Shown: positions 21,993-36,675 of the stretch, in pieces | Layout of the letters: each line of letters opens with the position of its first letter | Numbering within the stretch: position 1 is the stretch's first letter | Assembly: GCA_964613815.1 (NCBI GenBank) | Contig: CAZTKG010000001.1 | Location: 72,895 to 136,894, forward strand | From: an uncultured Gammaproteobacteria bacterium | Lineage (GTDB): Bacteria > Patescibacteriota > Patescibacteriia > UBA9934 | DNA: 64,000 bases | Reading direction: 5' to 3' | Made by a program: the position numbers and the translations under genes | Notes under the pieces: generated by a model | Told to the model about the DNA's origin: nothing | Seen by the model: the letters and a program-made list of their open reading frames with translations, nothing else | Databases searched by the model: none

Positions 21993-23057
21993 CTAGGAAG
22001 CGGCGATTTTTTTGTATGCCTCTCGGAGATCGTTTGCACCCAGTGCTTCTTGGTGCCATGCGTAGGTAAATTCCATGTCATCTTCCCAATATTGAACGAG
22101 TTGTTTGTTTTTTACGGCTTCTCGGAGCTGATTCGTTGGCTGCCAATTGAGATTGAATTCCTCAAAAAATGGTTTGAATTGGTAGCACATTTGAGTCATC
22201 CACATGTGCTTTTGTTTTTCGAAGTTCCAGGATTTGCAGATTTGAAATTCTCTACTTGCAGATTTGAAGATGGTGTCTTTGATTTTGAGAAGCTCTTCGT
22301 CGTTTGATATATGCTTTCCGTCTACTTCGACATTGATGCGAGAGAGTTTTTCTATGAGGTTTTGTTTATAGTCCATGTGGCATCCGATGTAATGTGCATT
22401 AGAATCTAGATCTTTATAGGTCGCGTAGATCTTGATGGATGTGTATGGAAATGCTCTGTTTGGCCAAAGTTCGGTTGGATTTAGATTTTGGTATTCTCTG
22501 ACCCAAAATGTTTCTGATGTATTGATTGGATATGGACCGTATACATCGAAACTGAGGTCTGTTGCGAAATCGTTGTATAGCGCGTGGACGAGCATTCCGC
22601 AGCCGGCGGAGATTTTTGCTGCTGTTTTTGCTGTATCGGTTGTGGCGGGTTGGAGATGCTTGGTGAATTGTTGGGGATTTTGATATTTTTTGATGAGATT
22701 ATCAGCCCACCACGTTTCGTTTACTGCTCTTTGCTTGATAGCTGACACGAAGAAATTTGTGATCTTTACGACAATCTCTGGGTCGGTTTTTGCCTGCGAG
22801 AACATGTAGGCAAGGAGGAATACGTTGAATTTTAATGAGCTGTGGCCTGGGAGGGCGTGGATAATGTCTTGAATTGACTTGCCTGATTTTGTAAATGCGT
22901 CGATTGGCCCCATCAAAAATGAAACCCATTCTGGTACATAGTGTGGCATGAGCATAAAGCCATCAAACGGCAGATGTGTTGATGGGTCATGACTTGCTGA
23001 GAGTTTGTAGACGGCTTTGGCATAGCCGTCGATCCATGGTGGATATGTGGTTGGCAT
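21993..23057 (-). CDS. Hypothetical 354-aa protein, last gene of the phosphohistidine-domain operon
   Basis: Starts 1 nt after the stop of the swivel-domain gene on the same strand. Trp/Tyr-rich. No match to known PEP-binding TIM barrel or ATP-grasp motifs. Confidence 0.5.
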   Translation of the reverse strand: MPTTYPPWIDGYAKAVYKLSASHDPSTHLPFDGFMLMPHYVPEWVSFLMGPIDAFTKSGKSIQDIIHALPGHSSLKFNVFLLAYMFSQAKTDPEIVVKITNFFVSAIKQRAVNETWWADNLIKKYQNPQQFTKHLQPATTDTAKTAAKISAGCGMLVHALYNDFATDLSFDVYGPYPINTSETFWVREYQNLNPTELWPNRAFPYTSIKIYATYKDLDSNAHYIGCHMDYKQNLIEKLSRINVEVDGKHISNDEELLKIKDTIFKSASREFQICKSWNFEKQKHMWMTQMCYQFKPFFEEFNLNWQPTNQLREAVKNKQLVQYWEDDMEFTYAWHQEALGANDLREAYKKIAAS

Positions 23058-23058
23058 A

Positions 23059-23382
23059 TTAGGCGTCGAAGACTTCTCCAGTCGAACCGTTCACGCTGAT
23101 GATTTGATTGTTTCTGAGGGTGGTTGTTCCTGTTTTAGTGGCGACGATGCATGGAAGGCCCATTTCCCTGCTGACGATTGCTGCGTGGCTTGTGAGGCCG
23201 CCTGTGTCGCAGATGATTGCGGCTGCTTTGCCCATGACGACGATCATGGAGGGGTCTGTCATGGTTGTGACAAGGATGTCGCCTTCGTTGAATGTATCTG
23301 CGTTTTGCATGTCGGTGAGAATTTTTACCGGGCCTTTGGCTGTGCCGGCTCCGGCGGGGGTACCCGTTAAAATTGGATTCAT
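23059..23382 (-). CDS. Stand-alone PEP-utilising-enzyme mobile (phosphohistidine swivel) domain protein
   Basis: ILVTTMTDPSMIVVMGKAAAIICDTGGLTSHAAIVSREMGLPCIVATKTG is a near-consensus PEP-utilisers domain with the phospho-accepting His in GGLTSHAAI. Confidence 0.8.
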   Translation of the reverse strand: MNPILTGTPAGAGTAKGPVKILTDMQNADTFNEGDILVTTMTDPSMIVVMGKAAAIICDTGGLTSHAAIVSREMGLPCIVATKTGTTTLRNNQIISVNGSTGEVFDA

Positions 23383-23387
23383 AGTTT

Positions 23388-24242
23388 TCAGCTTGATGTA
23401 AGACGTTGTAACACGTTGTTGTCAATTTGATATGTTTTGTTGCGAAGGGTTACCTCTACGGTAGCGTTTCCTTGGTTGTCTGTGGTCACGCGACTTTCCC
23501 AATTGTCTAGTGTGCCAAGGCTTCCTCCGATTTGTTGGAGGGAGGTGATTGATTCTCCGGTTTCTGCATCAATCAAGACTCCAGATATGAGGAAGGGTTC
23601 GGTGATGGTTTTGTGTGTCGCATGCAAGAGATCGATGTTTGAGTCGGGTTTTAGTTTTTTTGCCATTTTTTCGTGACGCATTTCGAAGATTTGGGCAAAG
23701 TCGCTCGCTGCTTGGGCTGGTGAGTATGCCTTTGCGGTTGATGAGTTTGGATTTTCTAGCCAGTTTGTAATGACGCTTTCTTCTGCTTCTTCCGCGACGG
23801 TTTCTTGTTCATCTGATGAAAGTTGCTCCATGCTTCTGCCTGCTAAGACGTTGTCTCGTGATTCGGCGAAAGCTGCTGCATAGCTTGTGAGAAATTCTTT
23901 TGGAGGATCGCCGATGAGCTCGTATCGCATGCGTTCTGTTCTGATTTTGACCCCAGTATTTTCTTTTTCGTAGCCTTTTACGATGGTTTGGGCGGTTTCG
24001 GATGTTCGTGATGCGGGACTGACATATGTTTTGATGCCATCTGGCGCTGCCTTGATTGATTCACCAAAAGCCTTGGCATCTTTTTCGCCTTTTTTTGAAA
24101 TTGAGGATGTTGACATGCCGGTTCCTTCTTTATTTGCGACTTCCCCGCTCTGTTTTTGTGCGTGACGGATCCAGATGTTTCTGATTGTGACGTTTGTGCC
24201 GTTTTCTTTTTGTTCGATTTCTCTGTTTTTTGGTGTTTCCAT
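23388..24242 (-). CDS. Histidine phosphatase superfamily (PGAM-like) protein
   Basis: IWIRHAQK (RHG-type catalytic His motif) and VSPASRTSETAQ (matches the SPLxRAxQTA motif). Confidence 0.55.
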   Translation of the reverse strand: METPKNREIEQKENGTNVTIRNIWIRHAQKQSGEVANKEGTGMSTSSISKKGEKDAKAFGESIKAAPDGIKTYVSPASRTSETAQTIVKGYEKENTGVKIRTERMRYELIGDPPKEFLTSYAAAFAESRDNVLAGRSMEQLSSDEQETVAEEAEESVITNWLENPNSSTAKAYSPAQAASDFAQIFEMRHEKMAKKLKPDSNIDLLHATHKTITEPFLISGVLIDAETGESITSLQQIGGSLGTLDNWESRVTTDNQGNATVEVTLRNKTYQIDNNVLQRLTSS

Positions 24243-24251
24243 ATGGCAAAA

Positions 24252-24995
24252 CTATAGCATGCGCGCGGTGTTTTCTGCGATCATGTCGCCGACTTGAGTT
24301 CTGTTGAGGTTTAGCAGGAGTGCGCCAAATTTTGATTTATTTCCGAGTGATTCTGCGAGGGCCCTTATGTATGTGCCGGCTGTGACGGTTAGGGTGATGT
24401 TTGCGGTGATGAGTTGTTGTTTTTTGATTGCATTCCAGCTTTTGATGATTTCTGTTTGGCGGAAGTTTCCGTTGACGAGGTCGATGGTATTGATAATGGT
24501 TGGTCTAATTGTGTCGATGTTTACTGTTTTGATGATTGGGGTTGAGGCGGCTAAGACTGTCATTTGTTTGTTTGGGATGGTGATTTCATCGAGGCGGTCT
24601 TGCTGTACCCACCAATGAAGTGGTTTCCCTTTCACTTTGAAGGCTGAGTATGGAGGGAATGGGAGTGTGAAGGTTTTTTTGATTTTTGTTAGTGTTTTTT
24701 TGATGATTTCTGTGTTTGGCGCCCTTCCCTGTTTGATGATACCGAGGGCATCGTACGTATCAGAACTGAGCCCAAAGAGGAATTGAGCTTCGTAGGTTTT
24801 GTCTAGATTTTGATAGGTTTTTTGGCTGTATCGATTTTCTCCTGAGAGGATGATGAGTTGTCCTTCTGCCATGGGGTCTAGGCGGCCGGCGTAGACCATG
24901 GGGACATCGATTAGTGATGGATTGTTTCGTTTTAAGGCTTTGATACAGTCGAGTGGGGTCCAGCCTTTTGGTTTATAGACTTGATGAATTGGCAT
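24252..24995 (-). CDS. truB: tRNA pseudouridine(55) synthase TruB-like
   Basis: KPKGWTPLDCI ... VYAGRLDPMAEGQLII matches the TruB catalytic-Asp motif. Confidence 0.7.
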   Translation of the reverse strand: MPIHQVYKPKGWTPLDCIKALKRNNPSLIDVPMVYAGRLDPMAEGQLIILSGENRYSQKTYQNLDKTYEAQFLFGLSSDTYDALGIIKQGRAPNTEIIKKTLTKIKKTFTLPFPPYSAFKVKGKPLHWWVQQDRLDEITIPNKQMTVLAASTPIIKTVNIDTIRPTIINTIDLVNGNFRQTEIIKSWNAIKKQQLITANITLTVTAGTYIRALAESLGNKSKFGALLLNLNRTQVGDMIAENTARML

Positions 24996-27736: not shown

Positions 27737-29047
27737 ATGGATTTAGACATTGAATTAGGGAGGCATGAGCTTAGCGATGAACGTAAAGAGATTTTACAAC
27801 AGGGGGATGAGGCTATTGAGCATGCTAGGGTGCGAGAAGGAGCTATTAGACATCTTAATATCGAACTTGGAGGGTTCAGTTTAACGATGAGTTCCGTCGC
27901 ACGTTATGAGCGTCTTATTGAAAAGCAAGGATACGAGATCGAGCGACTTGAGGCTGAAGACGACGGCTCAAGAGCTCAAGAAATTGCTGATGCGTATATT
28001 GATTATGAAAATTTAGATTCTGCTCTTGAGAAAGCTAGGGCTCGTTTGGAGAGGGTTGCTGTTGAGATTGATCGGCTGCTCGCTATTGAGCAAGCCGAAG
28101 AAGGAAAGGATGAGGAAGCGTTTGCTTCGCTTGAGCGCGCCATGGCAACGACTCGATACATGATTACGCGCGAGGAGACGCGAAATGGGATTATTTTGGA
28201 GCGTATAACGTCTGAATTGACTGAGGCTTCGGGGGAGATTCCGGATTTTTTGTCAGCGTTTAATGAAGCATTTGAGGATTTAAAAAATGCAGATGCGAGC
28301 ATTGAGGCGGATTCGCTTGTTGAATTGGGTGCGACGAGTGTTCATTTAAGGGCCGTTGATTACGATTCTTTTCTCGCAACACACTACGGCGAGCATGATG
28401 TGAGGTCCACGGAAGCTTCCGCCCACCTTGATCGGTTGGTTCATGAGAAGCTTCCACAGTCGATGCGTGATGAGATTGATGATCATATGCAAAAAGCTCT
28501 TCAAAAAGATGAACTTATGATTGATGAGGTGCCGGATGAATTTGAAATTGACATGTCCAACGAAGATGTTTCTGAGGGTGAGCGTGTGAGAAGAAGCGCT
28601 GCTTTGATGAACGGTGCGTCAGCGCGGGTCAGGCAAGCGAAGAAGGATAAGCCGCGGTTTTATGCATCAAAAGAAAAGAAGGCTGCTTGGAAAGAGCGCT
28701 TTGATGAAGCTTGGGAGTTTTATCGAGAGCAGTATACGTATCATTCCTTGGCAAAGATTGAGCGCGCGTATGTGAAGAAGTTGTTTGATGATGCGCGTGA
28801 AGAGGTGCGTGTTTGTGCTGAGATTTCGAAGGCGTCTACAAAGGCTCGGGATCGAATGGCTCCACTGCTTGGTTCGATACGAAGGGCTGATAAACTCACG
28901 GGGAAGATGAATCAATTATCGAATCTGGGTGATTCTGAAAATGTTCGGCATCGTCAGAAGATTCTAGATTCTGTTGGTCGAATGCGTGTTCAGCCGAATA
29001 ATAAACATTTGCAAAGATTTCTGGAGAGGCACAAAGGAAAAAAGTAA
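27737..29047 (+). CDS. Hypothetical acidic coiled-coil protein, paralog A of a tandem pair
   Basis: 436 aa. Acidic helical N-terminal part and a basic C-terminal KPRFYASKEKKAAWKERFDEAWEFYREQ motif shared with 29401..30729. Confidence 0.6.
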   Translation: MDLDIELGRHELSDERKEILQQGDEAIEHARVREGAIRHLNIELGGFSLTMSSVARYERLIEKQGYEIERLEAEDDGSRAQEIADAYIDYENLDSALEKARARLERVAVEIDRLLAIEQAEEGKDEEAFASLERAMATTRYMITREETRNGIILERITSELTEASGEIPDFLSAFNEAFEDLKNADASIEADSLVELGATSVHLRAVDYDSFLATHYGEHDVRSTEASAHLDRLVHEKLPQSMRDEIDDHMQKALQKDELMIDEVPDEFEIDMSNEDVSEGERVRRSAALMNGASARVRQAKKDKPRFYASKEKKAAWKERFDEAWEFYREQYTYHSLAKIERAYVKKLFDDAREEVRVCAEISKASTKARDRMAPLLGSIRRADKLTGKMNQLSNLGDSENVRHRQKILDSVGRMRVQPNNKHLQRFLERHKGKK

Positions 29048-29289: not shown

Positions 29290-29400
29290 ATAAAATCATT
29301 ATAGCAGGCTTTTGTGATTTCGTTTGATGTGCGATTTCTTTGAAGTGTTATAATGATGTTGTAACAATTGTGCGTGGAGGTCCATGCTGGAAATCGTTTT

Positions 29401-30729
29401 ATGGTCGTAGATATTGAGGTGAAAAACCATGAGCTTAGTTCAGATGAGTTAAAAGATCTGGAAAGAGGGAGTGAGGCGATGGCGATGGCGCAGGCTCGTG
29501 AATTGTTTTTTAAGCGCTTCAACCTGTCTCTTGATTTGTACTCGCGTACATTGAAGGGTGTTCAGGATTTTAGTGAGAGTGTTTTATCAATTGAGCAGGA
29601 TATTGATGCGTTGGTCGAGCAGGATGAAAACGGTGTTCATGCGCAACGGATTGCGGATCTTCGTGATAGGGCTGTCGAGACTGATAAATTTTTAGATGCT
29701 TCGCATGAACGTTTGGCTGCATTGGCTGTGAGGATTGATGCGTACATTGCTGTGATGCAGGATATTGAGGGTAGTTCTAGCGATGCGCTTTTGTCGCTTG
29801 ATCGAGCACGCGCGACTGCTGTTGCGGTGCGTGAGGATCAGGAGTTACGAAGGGCTCGGTATTTACAGCGGCTTAGCAGAGAGATTGATCCGATGCAGAA
29901 AGAGCTGCAGGAAGATTTGCGTGTCATTGAAGTTGCATTTGAGGACATCGTCACGTATGACGATGAAGTGTCGGAAGATGATTTTGCGGAGATGGATGGA
30001 TACAACCCTGCTGATGGTCTGGATACTTGTGAGTCTTTTTTGGCAGATCGTCTAGACGTTCTCAATCCACGATTAGATGAGGCTAGTGAAGCGGTTGAGC
30101 TTTTAGAGACAAGGGATCTGGATTTGGCTGAGGCGGGTGAGCTACGTGCGCTGATGGATGAAGTTATGCGTAAAGATGTGTATGCGGTAGACGATGTTCC
30201 GCGAGAGTTTAGTGTCCGAATGTCGTTTCCGGATATTGTGGAAGATAGGCGCTTGCAGCGGGCAAAGGCTGGTAGCGTAGGGGCGGGCCGTGCATTTAGA
30301 CAGGAGAAAAAAAGGAAGCCGCGGTTTTATGAATCAAAAGAAAAAAAAGCTGCTTGGAAGAAGCGGGTTGATGCCGCATATAATTTTTTCCGAGAACAGC
30401 GTACTTATCAGCTTTTGGCAGCTGTAGAGCAGGATTTTGTGAAACGGATTGTTAAAAAAACGGAAGGGGTTCGTGCTGAGTTGCGTGTGTGTGTTGAATC
30501 TACTGAATTAGCATTAAATAAAGTTCGTCGTTTGCAGGACAGGGCTTATGTGTTGAAAGAAAAGTTGGTAGAATTCGGAGAGATTGAGGATATTGCAACA
30601 GATCATGATGACTATGTTGGCGATACTATGGAAGCAATTACGCGCCTGCATGTCGACGTTGATTCTGATTTGTTGGAGCGTTTCTTGGAGCATGTTAAGC
30701 AAGAAAAAAAGGACGTTCGTAGCCCTTGA
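29401..30729 (+). CDS. Hypothetical acidic coiled-coil protein, paralog B
   Basis: N-terminus MVVDIEVKNHELSSDELKDL parallels MDLDIELGRHELSDERKEIL of paralog A. Shares the KPRFYESKEKKAAWKKRVDAAYNFFREQ block. Confidence 0.6.
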   Translation: MVVDIEVKNHELSSDELKDLERGSEAMAMAQARELFFKRFNLSLDLYSRTLKGVQDFSESVLSIEQDIDALVEQDENGVHAQRIADLRDRAVETDKFLDASHERLAALAVRIDAYIAVMQDIEGSSSDALLSLDRARATAVAVREDQELRRARYLQRLSREIDPMQKELQEDLRVIEVAFEDIVTYDDEVSEDDFAEMDGYNPADGLDTCESFLADRLDVLNPRLDEASEAVELLETRDLDLAEAGELRALMDEVMRKDVYAVDDVPREFSVRMSFPDIVEDRRLQRAKAGSVGAGRAFRQEKKRKPRFYESKEKKAAWKKRVDAAYNFFREQRTYQLLAAVEQDFVKRIVKKTEGVRAELRVCVESTELALNKVRRLQDRAYVLKEKLVEFGEIEDIATDHDDYVGDTMEAITRLHVDVDSDLLERFLEHVKQEKKDVRSP

Positions 30730-36101: not shown

Positions 36102-36151
36102 ATGTTTTCTTGGCTCCGGGGGTGGGATTCGAACCCACGACCAATTGGTTA

Positions 36152-36675
36152 CACATTATCCTGATGTTTCCATCGGGGGTGGACTATATCATCATCCCTT
36201 TGGGATGCGAGGCGCTTCGAACTGATTTTTCAGCCCTACTCCTTGCGGATAGTCTCTGAACCTTCCCTTTCGGGCTTGGCTGCTGATTGCCCTGTCTTTC
36301 GATTTAGGTTTCCAGCAATTCACCTCGTTTTCACTCCAACGTTGCCGATGGAGGCTGCGTGATGCCAGCATGAATTTCTCTATGGCAGTTTGCACAAATT
36401 AGAACACATTTGTCGAGCTCTTTTTTCACCCTTTCCCGCGATCGAGTCAGTCCATCTTGAGATATTCCAAACTCTTTTTTTGATGGGTCAAGATGATGAA
36501 AGTCGAGTGCACTCCCGCATTTTTTATAGCTGCAGATCGTGCACTGGCGCCGAGATATTCGACAGCCATTTGTCTGACTTTTTTGCGCCTTTTTGAAACT
36601 GCTTTTTTGAGATACTCAGCTCTGTCGGCGTATTTTCTCTTGTCTGGCATGGTTTTCGTATACCTGACGTGTTTC
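36152..36675 (-). mobile_element. Group I intron (about 524 nt) carrying an HNH homing-endonuclease pseudogene
   Basis: Lies between the tRNA exons. Contains the P7-like GUUCAGAGACUA element near the 3' end, a 5' splice site after U and a 3' splice site after G, and an internal HNH ORF. Confidence 0.7.
36331..36650 (-). pseudogene. HNH homing endonuclease, frameshifted (1-nt deletion near 36547-36550)
   Basis: Frame A reads MPDKRKYADRAEYLKKAVSKRRKKVRQMAVEYLG. The +1 frame then reads QCTICSYKKCGSALDFHHLDPSKKEF...DKCVLICANCHREIHAGI, a complete HNH motif set. A single G deletion in ...CTCGGCG(G)CCAG... explains the break. Confidence 0.75.

What the first reader, a model, noticed from the sequence alone, without database searches (positions are those of the whole stretch)
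21993..24242. Operon of a histidine phosphatase, a stand-alone PEP-utilising phosphohistidine swivel domain and an unknown 354-aa protein
The 107-aa product of 23059-23382 is a near-consensus PEP-utilisers mobile domain (GGLTSHAAIVSRE). Normally this domain is embedded between a nucleotide-binding domain and a substrate-binding barrel in PEP synthase, PPDK, PTS enzyme I or rifampin phosphotransferase. Here it is a free-standing gene. It is preceded 6 nt upstream by a PGAM-like histidine phosphatase (RHAQK, VSPASRTSETAQ) and followed with a 1-nt gap by a 354-aa W/Y-rich protein with no recognisable fold. No ATP-grasp or PPDK_N kinase domain is nearby. The arrangement suggests a split phosphotransfer relay (a His~P carrier with an unknown acceptor enzyme and a dedicated phosphatase) of unknown substrate.
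Basis: partly seen in the sequence, partly recalled or inferred. Interest (0 to 1): 0.6.

Follow-up and report, generated by a model that had tools for sequence, protein, structure and literature searches.

The report
Split His-swivel phosphotransfer cassette, new partner
Three tightly packed genes encode a free-standing phosphate-carrying "swivel" domain, a confidently folded 354-residue protein of a previously undescribed family that replaces the pyruvate-binding barrel of PEP synthase in fused relatives, and a histidine phosphatase; together they look like a disassembled dikinase-type phosphotransfer enzyme with an unknown substrate, recurring in ultra-small bacteria and archaea.

Summary
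Three co-directional minus-strand genes, separated by 5-nt and 1-nt gaps, encode a histidine-phosphatase-superfamily protein (284 aa), a complete stand-alone PF00391 swivel domain (107 aa, catalytic His66) and a 354-aa protein with no Pfam, NCBIfam or PDB match.

The 354-aa protein belongs to a real family: 325 representative clusters and an AlphaFold model with pLDDT 96.9. Foldseek finds no match in PDB, and the model is neither a TIM barrel nor an ATP-grasp.

In all 15 independent loci examined, a free-standing swivel gene lies directly next to the 354-family gene. At least 14 cluster representatives fuse swivel to the 354 domain. One protein is PPDK_N–swivel–354, which is PEP synthase with its C-terminal barrel replaced. 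Another is 354–PPDK_N. In five loci a PPDK_N ATP-grasp gene follows directly.

The same phosphatase family accompanies five cassettes and two other swivel/ATP-grasp clusters.

I read this as a split dikinase-type system with a new acceptor domain. Its ATP-grasp partner is absent from this 64-kb window and is presumably encoded elsewhere. The substrate and the phosphatase's target remain unknown.

Verdict: a new variant of a known kind, and moderately to highly interesting.

The parts
23388..24242 (-). 284-aa histidine-phosphatase-superfamily protein (HP) with a large helical cap (about residues 115-196) and an extra C-terminal beta-meander (247-273). The catalytic set R26-H27, R79, E154 and H210 is invariant in the family.
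   Evidence: PF00300, E 1.8e-7. The 15-sequence alignment shows R26, H27, R79, E154 and H210 invariant. AF2 model pLDDT 88. Foldseek against PDB gives 182 hits at E<=1e-3, all histidine phosphatases of both branches.
24162..24167 (-). Codons for R26-H27 of the HP protein (the RH of the RHAQK motif; H27 is the predicted phospho-accepting nucleophile).
   Evidence: Read directly from the sequence. Invariant in alignment A5.
23059..23382 (-). 107-aa free-standing PEP-utilisers mobile (swivel) domain, proposed to be the phosphohistidine carrier.
   Evidence: PF00391 1-72/72, E 2.2e-26. The closest curated model is PEP synthase NF005057 positions 357-462, E 1.1e-34. 73 relatives at E<=1e-10, mostly stand-alone proteins of about 100-115 aa.
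23185..23187 (-). Codon of His66 in GGLTSH, the predicted phosphoryl-carrying histidine. Thr64 sits at the position of the regulatory Thr of PpsA/PPDK.
   Evidence: Sequence. The motif matches T/SxxGGxxxH / GGxT(S/C)HAA described for swivel domains in PMC12167813.
21993..23057 (-). 354-aa protein of an undescribed family, proposed to be the second (acceptor) active-site module that the swivel docks onto.
   Evidence: 325 representative clusters at E<=1e-3. AF2 pLDDT 96.9 and pTM 0.93. No Foldseek hit in PDB or BFVD. No Pfam hit to the 354 domain in any of the 99 members; one member's hit is to a fused swivel domain. No PDB profile hit. Fusions exist with swivel and with PPDK_N.
22530..22580 (-). 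The most conserved motif of the 354 family, L-Y-N-D-x-x-T-D-x5-Y-G-P-Y (residues 160-176). D163, G174 and Y176 are at least 91% conserved across 99 sequences; this is a candidate metal/phosphate site.
   Evidence: Column statistics on A2. Other conserved polar positions are R/K76, D114, E/D171, Y214, H227, D/N246, E280, K283, K/R295 and K318.
24252..24995 (-). truB-like pseudouridine synthase gene, co-directional and 9 nt upstream. It is probably in the same transcription unit in this genome but is not part of the cassette in relatives.
   Evidence: PF01509, E 5e-17. Not found next to the cassette in the other loci.

Best explanation
The three genes are a disassembled dikinase-type (PEP synthase / PPDK / rifampin-phosphotransferase-like) phosphotransfer system.

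The 107-aa protein is a diffusible swivel domain that carries a phosphoryl group on His66. The 354-aa protein is a new-fold module that takes the place of the PEP/pyruvate TIM barrel. It binds a still unknown acceptor and catalyses transfer between swivel-His~P and that acceptor.

The swivel is loaded by a PPDK_N ATP-grasp protein (ATP to AMP, with the beta-phosphate going to His). In relatives that protein is fused or is the next gene. Here it must act in trans from outside the window.

The 284-aa protein is an active histidine phosphatase. It hydrolyses either the phosphorylated product or the His~P carrier, giving the cassette a kinase/phosphatase pair.

Shown: domain identities, conserved adjacency, natural fusions, intact catalytic residues, and the fold novelty of the 354-aa module at Foldseek/PDB level. 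Inferred: the direction of transfer, ATP as the donor in this genome, the phosphatase's target, and the nature of the acceptor.
For: (1) The swivel domain is complete, carries the GGLTSH motif and is closest to PpsA.

(2) In 15 of 15 independent loci a stand-alone swivel gene abuts the 354-family gene. Three of three sampled close homologues of the window's swivel have a 354-family neighbour.

(3) Rosetta-stone fusions. At least 14 representative clusters are swivel-354 fusions in the same order as the genes here. P0208 is PPDK_N(47-286) + swivel(319-389) + 354-like(427-740); it aligns to PpsA model positions 94-479 and then switches to the 354 domain. P0144 is 354-like + PPDK_N.

(4) A PPDK_N gene directly follows the pair in L004, L011, L018, L021 and L022.

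(5) In a tree of 354 domains, cassettes with and without an adjacent PPDK_N or HP are intermixed, and the window's clade includes L018, which has PPDK_N adjacent. This argues for one function with partner genes that move around.

(6) The HP family keeps R-H...R...E...H invariant and has the histidine-phosphatase fold. It lies next to swivel genes in window, L006, L008, L011, L012, L014 and L016.

(7) Multi-component dikinases with a trans ATP-grasp are experimentally established: HpeHI, CreHI and PpsAB (PMC12167813).
Confidence: 0.55

Rival explanations
1. This is a non-orthologous PEP synthase / PPDK of lower glycolysis. On this reading the 354-aa module is a new pyruvate/PEP-binding domain, so the cassette (with a trans ATP-grasp) interconverts pyruvate and PEP, and the HP protein is a divergent phosphoglycerate-mutase-like enzyme of the same pathway.
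For: The swivel, and the PPDK_N of relatives, score best against PEP synthase models (NF005057: E 1e-34 for the window swivel; E 5e-131 for P0208). The best structural and sequence neighbour of HP is a PGAM-annotated protein, 3r7a. TrmB-family sugar regulators lie divergently upstream in six loci. A phosphoglucose isomerase abuts the cassette in L021.
Against: There is no similarity of any kind to PEP-utilizers_C. HP reaches no curated NCBIfam cut-off; its best hit is PspA at 20 bits against 350. The family has only 325 clusters at 50% identity, which is too sparse for a central-metabolism enzyme of CPR/DPANN. Several genomes carry two to four paralogous swivel-354 pairs (L008, L012), which is unusual for a single glycolytic step.
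Confidence: 0.15
2. This is an ATP-independent relay in which the histidine phosphatase is the loader. HP takes a phosphoryl group from a phosphomonoester onto H27 and passes it His-to-His to the swivel, which delivers it to the substrate of the 354 protein (or the reverse). HP would then substitute for the ATP-grasp in cassettes that lack one.
For: Among cassettes with enough flank, HP-only (window, L006, L008, L012) and PPDK_N-only (L004, L018, L021, L022) arrangements are about equally common, and only L011 has both. Histidine-phosphatase-superfamily enzymes work through a phospho-His intermediate (established knowledge). HP occupies the first position of the operon, where PPDK_N sits in the fused P0208.
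Against: The sample is small. L011 and L016 carry both HP and PPDK_N. HP has a large helical cap like small-molecule acid phosphatases. No HP-swivel or HP-354 fusion was seen. Cassettes without either partner exist (L009, L010). The 354-domain tree does not separate HP-type from PPDK_N-type cassettes.
Confidence: 0.12
3. This is a glycan (glycogen/alpha-glucan) dikinase plus glucan phosphatase pair, analogous to plant GWD/PWD with SEX4/LSF2. The aromatic-rich 354 module would bind a polysaccharide, and HP would remove the phosphate.
For: The cassette pairs a kinase with a phosphatase. Conserved aromatics (Y161, Y176, W198, Y214, Y292, W305) could stack on sugars. TrmB sugar regulators are adjacent in six loci. 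Starch synthase and GH57 genes lie 3-6 kb from the cassette in L021.
Against: The glycogen genes are nearby in only one locus. No carbohydrate-binding module or fold match was found. The aromatic content is only 8.5% W+Y. This is analogy from memory and was not tested.
Confidence: 0.08
4. The genes are non-functional debris: a decayed pps gene whose swivel fragment survives as an ORF, with unrelated neighbours.
For: There is no ATP-grasp and no barrel domain in the window.
Against: The swivel model match is complete. Start and stop codons are intact and the spacing is tight. Stand-alone swivel proteins form a large conserved family. The same three genes recur at 30-55% identity. Catalytic residues are invariant.
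Confidence: 0.02

Closest known systems
PEP synthase (PpsA, pyruvate, water dikinase) and PPDK
   Same: The swivel domain is closest to PpsA. The fused relative P0208 aligns to PpsA model positions 94-479, covering ATP-grasp plus swivel. The His-swivel shuttling logic between two active sites is the same.
   Different: The C-terminal PEP/pyruvate TIM barrel (PF02896) is absent and is replaced by an unrelated 354-aa fold. The domains are separate polypeptides. The gene order swivel-354-PPDK_N is permuted relative to PpsA. The substrate is unknown.
Two-component small-molecule dikinases HpeHI, CreHI and phenylphosphate synthase PpsAB (PMC12167813)
   Same: They are dikinases split into separately encoded components, with a stand-alone ATP-grasp (HpeI) that loads a swivel His in trans. 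A downstream phosphatase step exists in the Hpe pathway.
   Different: In those enzymes the swivel stays fused to an RPH-type substrate-binding domain (HpeH). Here the swivel is free and the acceptor module is unrelated to RPH-type domains (no Foldseek hit; hhalign searches match only a fused swivel). These systems occur in CPR/DPANN-like genomes, not in aromatic-degrading bacteria.
Rifampin phosphotransferase (RPH) family (PMC4844700)
   Same: Three-module ATP-grasp / substrate-binding / swivel design. RPH-like PPDK_N...swivel proteins lie next to the cassette in L004 and L011.
   Different: The window has no RIF-binding-type domain and no ATP-grasp. The NCBIfam RPH model reaches only 77 bits against a cut-off of 999, and on the swivel alone.
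PTS enzyme I to HPr phosphorelay
   Same: The concept of a small diffusible His~P carrier protein serving separate enzymes. The EI swivel domain is homologous (TIGR01417, E 1.5e-10).
   Different: In the PTS the swivel is part of EI and the diffusible carrier is HPr, a different fold. No PEP-binding domain, HPr or EII is present here.
SixA / PGAM5-type phosphohistidine phosphatases (histidine phosphatase superfamily; from my own knowledge)
   Same: Same superfamily and the same RH...R...H catalytic set. The genetic pairing with a His~P carrier suggests a comparable resetting role.
   Different: SixA is about 160 aa with no cap. This protein is 284 aa with a four-helix cap and an extra beta-meander. 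The SixA model TIGR00249 scores 14.4 bits against a cut-off of 74.5. Activity on His~P is untested.

Membership tests
PEP-utilising enzyme mobile (swivel) domain, PF00391 | Full-length match to the domain model above the gathering score | tested here: met
   91.7 bits against a cut-off of 23.1; model positions 1-72 of 72.
PEP-utilising enzyme mobile (swivel) domain, PF00391 | Catalytic His in the G-G-x-T-x-H-A-A loop | tested here: met
   GGLTSH66AAIVSRE. The motif is as described in PMC12167813.
PEP-utilising enzyme mobile (swivel) domain, PF00391 | Phosphorylation of the His and shuttling between two active sites | not testable with these tools
   Requires biochemistry.
PEP synthase / PPDK | N-terminal PPDK_N ATP-grasp domain (PF01326) | tested here: not met
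   Absent from the three proteins and from the whole window. Present in relatives as a fused or adjacent gene.
PEP synthase / PPDK | C-terminal PEP/pyruvate-binding TIM barrel (PF02896) | tested here: not met
   No Pfam hit. The model is helical bundle + antiparallel sheet + helices. No Foldseek match to any PpsA/PPDK/EI chain.
PEP synthase / PPDK | Whole-protein score above the NCBIfam cut-off | tested here: not met
   Swivel alone: 119.6 bits against 598 (NF005057).
RPH / HpeHI-type small-molecule dikinases | Swivel fused to an RPH-type substrate-binding domain | tested here: not met
   The swivel is free-standing. The 354 family shows no hhalign similarity to RPH-like middle domains and no Foldseek hit to RPH structures.
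RPH / HpeHI-type small-molecule dikinases | Separate or fused ATP-grasp that loads the swivel | tested here: inconclusive
   Not in this window. Adjacent in 5 of about 12 related cassettes with enough flank. The rest of the genome could not be searched.
Histidine phosphatase superfamily (branch 1, PF00300) | RHG-type motif with the nucleophilic His, a second Arg and a second His | tested here: met
   R26-H27, R79 and H210 (plus E154) are invariant in 15 sequences. PF00300 scores 31.5 bits against a cut-off of 21.7.
Histidine phosphatase superfamily (branch 1, PF00300) | Alpha/beta core fold of the superfamily | tested here: met
   AF2 pLDDT 88. 182 PDB matches at E<=1e-3, all PGAM-like or histidine acid phosphatases.
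SixA-type phosphohistidine phosphatase | Match to TIGR00249 above cut-off; compact core of about 160 aa without a cap | tested here: not met
   14.4 bits against 74.5. The protein is 284 aa with a helical cap at residues 115-196.
SixA-type phosphohistidine phosphatase | Hydrolysis of protein His~P | not testable with these tools
   Requires an assay with phosphorylated swivel protein.
Cofactor-dependent phosphoglycerate mutase | Score above the curated family cut-off | tested here: not met
   No dPGM model is listed. The best NCBIfam hit is PspA at 20 bits against 350.
Known anti-phage defence systems (PADLOC) | Any component matching a PADLOC model | tested here: not met
   0 hits for all three proteins.

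The most novel reading that the evidence does not exclude
The 354-aa family is a new catalytic fold that defines a new class of His~P-dependent phosphotransferases in CPR bacteria and DPANN-like archaea. The free-standing swivel would act as an HPr-like diffusible phosphocarrier linking one ATP-grasp 'hub' to several acceptor enzymes; clusters such as L011, L016 and L022 carry up to five swivel modules with one PPDK_N. The capped histidine phosphatase would be its dedicated phosphohistidine phosphatase. Together this would be a PTS-like phosphorelay network built from dikinase parts.
Probability: 0.2. Interest if true: 0.8.

Novelty: new variant of a known kind. Interest (0 to 1): 0.62.

Why it matters
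Swivel-domain dikinases (PpsA, PPDK, GWD, RPH, HpeHI) are a small set of enzymes, and in each the phosphohistidine domain is tethered to at least one catalytic partner.

Here the carrier is a separate 107-aa protein. Its conserved partner is a confidently folded domain with no match in Pfam or PDB. In fused relatives that domain sits exactly where the pyruvate-binding barrel sits in PEP synthase.

This gives a testable handle on an unannotated protein family: 325 sequence clusters, apparently concentrated in CPR/DPANN genomes whose metabolism is poorly understood. It also gives a natural system for asking how a swivel domain recognises its docking sites when it is not tethered.

Identifying the acceptor could reveal a new phosphorylated metabolite or an alternative route in the reduced central metabolism of ultra-small cells.

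Tried and rejected
(1) Word-indexed homologue search of the 354-aa protein found only 3 proteins. The exhaustive HMMER search was needed to reveal the family.

With 6 sequences it returned 2 genome loci and 7 metagenome loci.

(4) A search for PPDK_N in the window gave only chance hits in a response regulator and a histidine kinase.

(5) I tested whether the N-terminal about 320-aa 'domain X', fused to swivel-354 in P0155/P0160 and to 354 in P0112/P0125/P0150, is HP or PPDK_N. It is neither. It has no PDB hit, no relation to the 354 family, and is absent from the window and from the loci fetched by then (L001-L013).

(6) I tested whether the variable 217-270-aa proteins that occupy the HP position in L008, L009, L018, L021 and L022 belong to the HP family. 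This is not supported (hhalign E 0.27-0.54; BLAST and HP-profile search for all five, including L009 and L018). There is only a weak His_Phos_1 hit for the L008 protein (E 0.012) and a weak C-terminal match for L016_327 (E 0.005).

(7) The hhalign 'hits' of the 354 alignment to RPH-like proteins are an artefact of one member that carries a fused swivel.

(8) The defence-system reading was rejected (PADLOC).

(9) Literature searches for stand-alone swivel proteins or this cassette found nothing specific.

(10) An attempt to splice out the group I intron and recover a tRNA with ARAGORN failed.
Full report
**Observation**

The minus strand carries three tightly packed ORFs:
- 24242..23388, 284 aa
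- 23382..23059, 107 aa
- 23057..21993, 354 aa

The gaps between them are 5 nt and 1 nt. A truB-like gene ends 9 nt upstream.

Pfam gives a complete PF00391 match for the 107-aa protein (positions 1-72/72, E 2.2e-26). It gives an N-terminal PF00300 match for the 284-aa protein (E 1.8e-7). It gives nothing for the 354-aa protein. NCBIfam places the swivel closest to PEP synthase (NF005057 positions 357-462, E 1.1e-34) and finds nothing for the 354-aa protein. The catalytic loop is GGLTSH66AAIVSRE.

No PPDK_N/ATP-grasp is detectable in the 64-kb window. The weak tblastn hits near 63 kb are a response regulator and a histidine kinase. The window matches marine metagenome contigs of up to 579 kb. 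The closest relatives of its three proteins come from Patescibacteria (CPR) and archaeal contigs, so a CPR-like host is likely. That host assignment is an inference.

**The 354-aa protein**

A word-indexed search found only two relatives. An exhaustive profile search of 1.84 billion representatives found 325 clusters at E<=1e-3 and 80 at E<=1e-30, typically 345-365 aa long.

With a 99-sequence alignment, AlphaFold2 gives a very confident model (pLDDT 96.9, pTM 0.93). It has an N-terminal helical bundle (residues 8-161), a central antiparallel sheet (170-250) and C-terminal helices. This topology is neither a (beta/alpha)8 barrel nor an ATP-grasp.

Conserved positions are D163, G174, Y176, Y214, W305, P307 and P30, each in at least 91% of sequences. 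Also conserved are R/K76, D114, E/D171, H227, D/N246, E280, K283, K/R295 and K318. This acid/base/aromatic set is compatible with a metal-dependent phosphotransfer site. That reading is an inference.

**Link between swivel and 354**

Gene neighbourhoods were collected from 15 independent loci: window, L003, L004, L006, L008, L009, L010, L011, L012 and L018-L023. In every one, a free-standing swivel gene of about 105-120 aa directly abuts the 354-family gene.

Stand-alone swivel proteins form a sizeable family of their own: 73 clusters at E<=1e-10, most of them 100-115 aa.

Natural fusions confirm a functional link:

| Architecture | Examples |
|---|---|
| swivel + 354-like, same order as the genes here | at least 14 representative clusters |
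| 354-like + swivel | P0182 |
| tandem 354-354 | P0080, P0081 |
| PPDK_N(47-286) + swivel(319-389) + 354-like(427-740) | P0208 |
| 354-like + PPDK_N | P0144 |

P0208 aligns contiguously to PEP synthase model positions 94-479 and then continues into the 354 domain where PpsA has its PEP-binding barrel.

A PPDK_N gene directly follows the pair in L004, L011, L018, L021 and L022. So the system is a dikinase taken apart into up to three genes (swivel, 354, ATP-grasp), and the 354 module is the second, non-nucleotide active-site domain.

**The phosphatase**

The 284-aa protein belongs to a small family of about 300-aa proteins in which R26, H27, R79, E154 and H210 are invariant. Its model (pLDDT 88) has the histidine-phosphatase core plus a four-helix cap (residues 115-196) and an extra C-terminal beta-meander. 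Foldseek returns 182 PDB matches at E<=1e-3, all PGAM-like enzymes or histidine acid phosphatases. It reaches no curated NCBIfam cut-off: SixA scores 14.4 against 74.5 and PspA 20 against 350.

The family lies directly before swivel-354 in window, L006, L011 and L012, and at the end of the L008 cluster. It also lies inside two other swivel/ATP-grasp clusters that lack a 354 gene (L014, L016). In L013 and L015 it stands alone.

HP therefore travels with different acceptor modules but always with swivel genes, which points toward an action on the carrier. Its large cap resembles small-molecule phosphatases, which points toward the product. I cannot decide between the two.

**Where does the phosphate come from in this genome?**

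A neighbour-joining tree of 354 domains intermixes cassettes that have an adjacent PPDK_N, an adjacent HP, both, or neither. The window's clade includes L018, which has PPDK_N adjacent. This argues for one conserved function with partner genes that relocate, and hence for a trans-acting ATP-grasp here. Trans-acting ATP-grasp components are established for the two-component dikinases HpeHI, CreHI and PpsAB (PMC12167813).

The alternative is that HP loads the swivel from a phosphomonoester. It is suggested by the roughly complementary distribution of HP-only and PPDK_N-only cassettes. It is weakened by L011 and L016, which have both.

**Context clues to the substrate**

These are weak.
- A TrmB-family sugar regulator is divergently transcribed upstream of the cassette in six loci: L008, L009, L012, L014, L018 and L021.
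- L021 has phosphoglucose isomerase next to the cassette, and starch synthase and GH57 genes 3-6 kb away.
- L018 has two EEP-family phosphatases right after PPDK_N.
- L010 and L014 have xylose-isomerase-like barrels nearby.

These clues hint at sugar or sugar-phosphate chemistry and at a recurrent kinase/phosphatase theme. They do not identify the acceptor.

**Comparison with known systems**

The mechanism class (His-swivel dikinase) is known. The following are not described in the literature I could search:
- a swivel domain that is free of both partners
- an acceptor module of an undescribed family
- the recurrent histidine-phosphatase companion

The cassette fails the membership tests for PpsA/PPDK (no ATP-grasp, no barrel), for RPH/HpeH (no RPH-type domain), for the PTS, and for PADLOC defence systems.

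**Verdict**

I classify this as a new variant of a known kind. My confidence is about 0.55 that it is a split dikinase-type system with a trans ATP-grasp, a new acceptor domain and an accessory phosphatase. Interest is 0.62.

Noticed in passing
window 36160-36425 (-), flank 36122-36139 (-): A complete group I intron (RF00028, 95 bits, E 3e-23) is followed by a short tRNA/tmRNA-like 3' end (local tmRNA match to model positions 346-363, E 2e-4). ARAGORN finds no tRNA or tmRNA in the window, and a naive exon join gave no tRNA. The gene hosting the intron is unidentified.
   Followed up: partly
window 1-64000: There is a very strong strand asymmetry irrespective of gene orientation. GC skew is +0.08 to +0.34 and AT skew -0.07 to -0.33 on the + strand up to about 60 kb. 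GC skew then flips to about -0.05 at 60-64 kb. This looks like replication-related skew, with a possible origin or terminus near 60 kb.
   Followed up: no
L011 10167-16900 (Candidatus Moraniibacteriota CP064975.1): Directly after the HP-swivel-354 trio lies a 1573-codon open frame: PPDK_N + about 360 aa + swivel + about 420 aa + swivel. An overlapping frame follows with two more swivel domains. The gene caller had called only a 578-aa piece. This is a giant multi-swivel dikinase-like protein.
   Followed up: partly
L008 3761-4492, L009 7825-8571, L012 3748-4584, L014 1310-2044, L018 7985-8821, L021 7798-8535: A TrmB-family (sugar-specific) transcriptional regulator is divergently transcribed immediately upstream of the cassette in six independent loci. 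The window has none; truB sits there instead.
   Followed up: partly
proteins P0155, P0160 (residues 1-330); P0112, P0125, P0150 (residues 1-330): Another undescribed domain of about 320 aa ('X') is fused N-terminally to swivel + 354-like, or directly to 354-like. It has no Pfam, PDB, HP or PPDK_N similarity and is absent from the window and from the loci fetched by then (L001-L013).
   Followed up: partly
L008 4796-5449, L009 8848-9549, L018 8848-9570, L021 8818-9531, L022 4125-4937: Variable proteins of 217-270 aa and unknown family flank the cassette: between TrmB and the swivel (where HP sits in the window) in L008, L009, L018 and L021, and directly after PPDK_N in L022. Some show RH(G)...SH-like motifs, and the L008 protein has a weak His_Phos_1 hit (E 0.012). 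Membership of the HP family is not supported.
   Followed up: partly
L016 200-7120 and L022 91-8160: These are clusters in which a single stand-alone PPDK_N gene is accompanied by several different [about 250-370-aa domain + swivel] proteins and an HP or HP-like gene. This suggests one ATP-grasp serving several acceptor modules.
   Followed up: partly
L003 1724-2509: In the closest cassette with DNA available, the gene overlapping the 3' end of the 354 homologue encodes a partial protein with APH/MtnK-like kinase motifs (…WGDPVYRNIF…DFDH…). It has no Pfam hit at E<=1e-3.
   Followed up: no
window 27737-29047 (+) and 29368-30729 (+): Two neighbouring acidic proteins (436 aa and 453 aa) with no recorded Pfam hit on the matching contigs look paralogous. 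They share a C-terminal motif, K(K/D)(R/K)KPRFY(A/E)SKEKKAAWK…F(Y/F)REQ(Y/R)TY.
   Followed up: no
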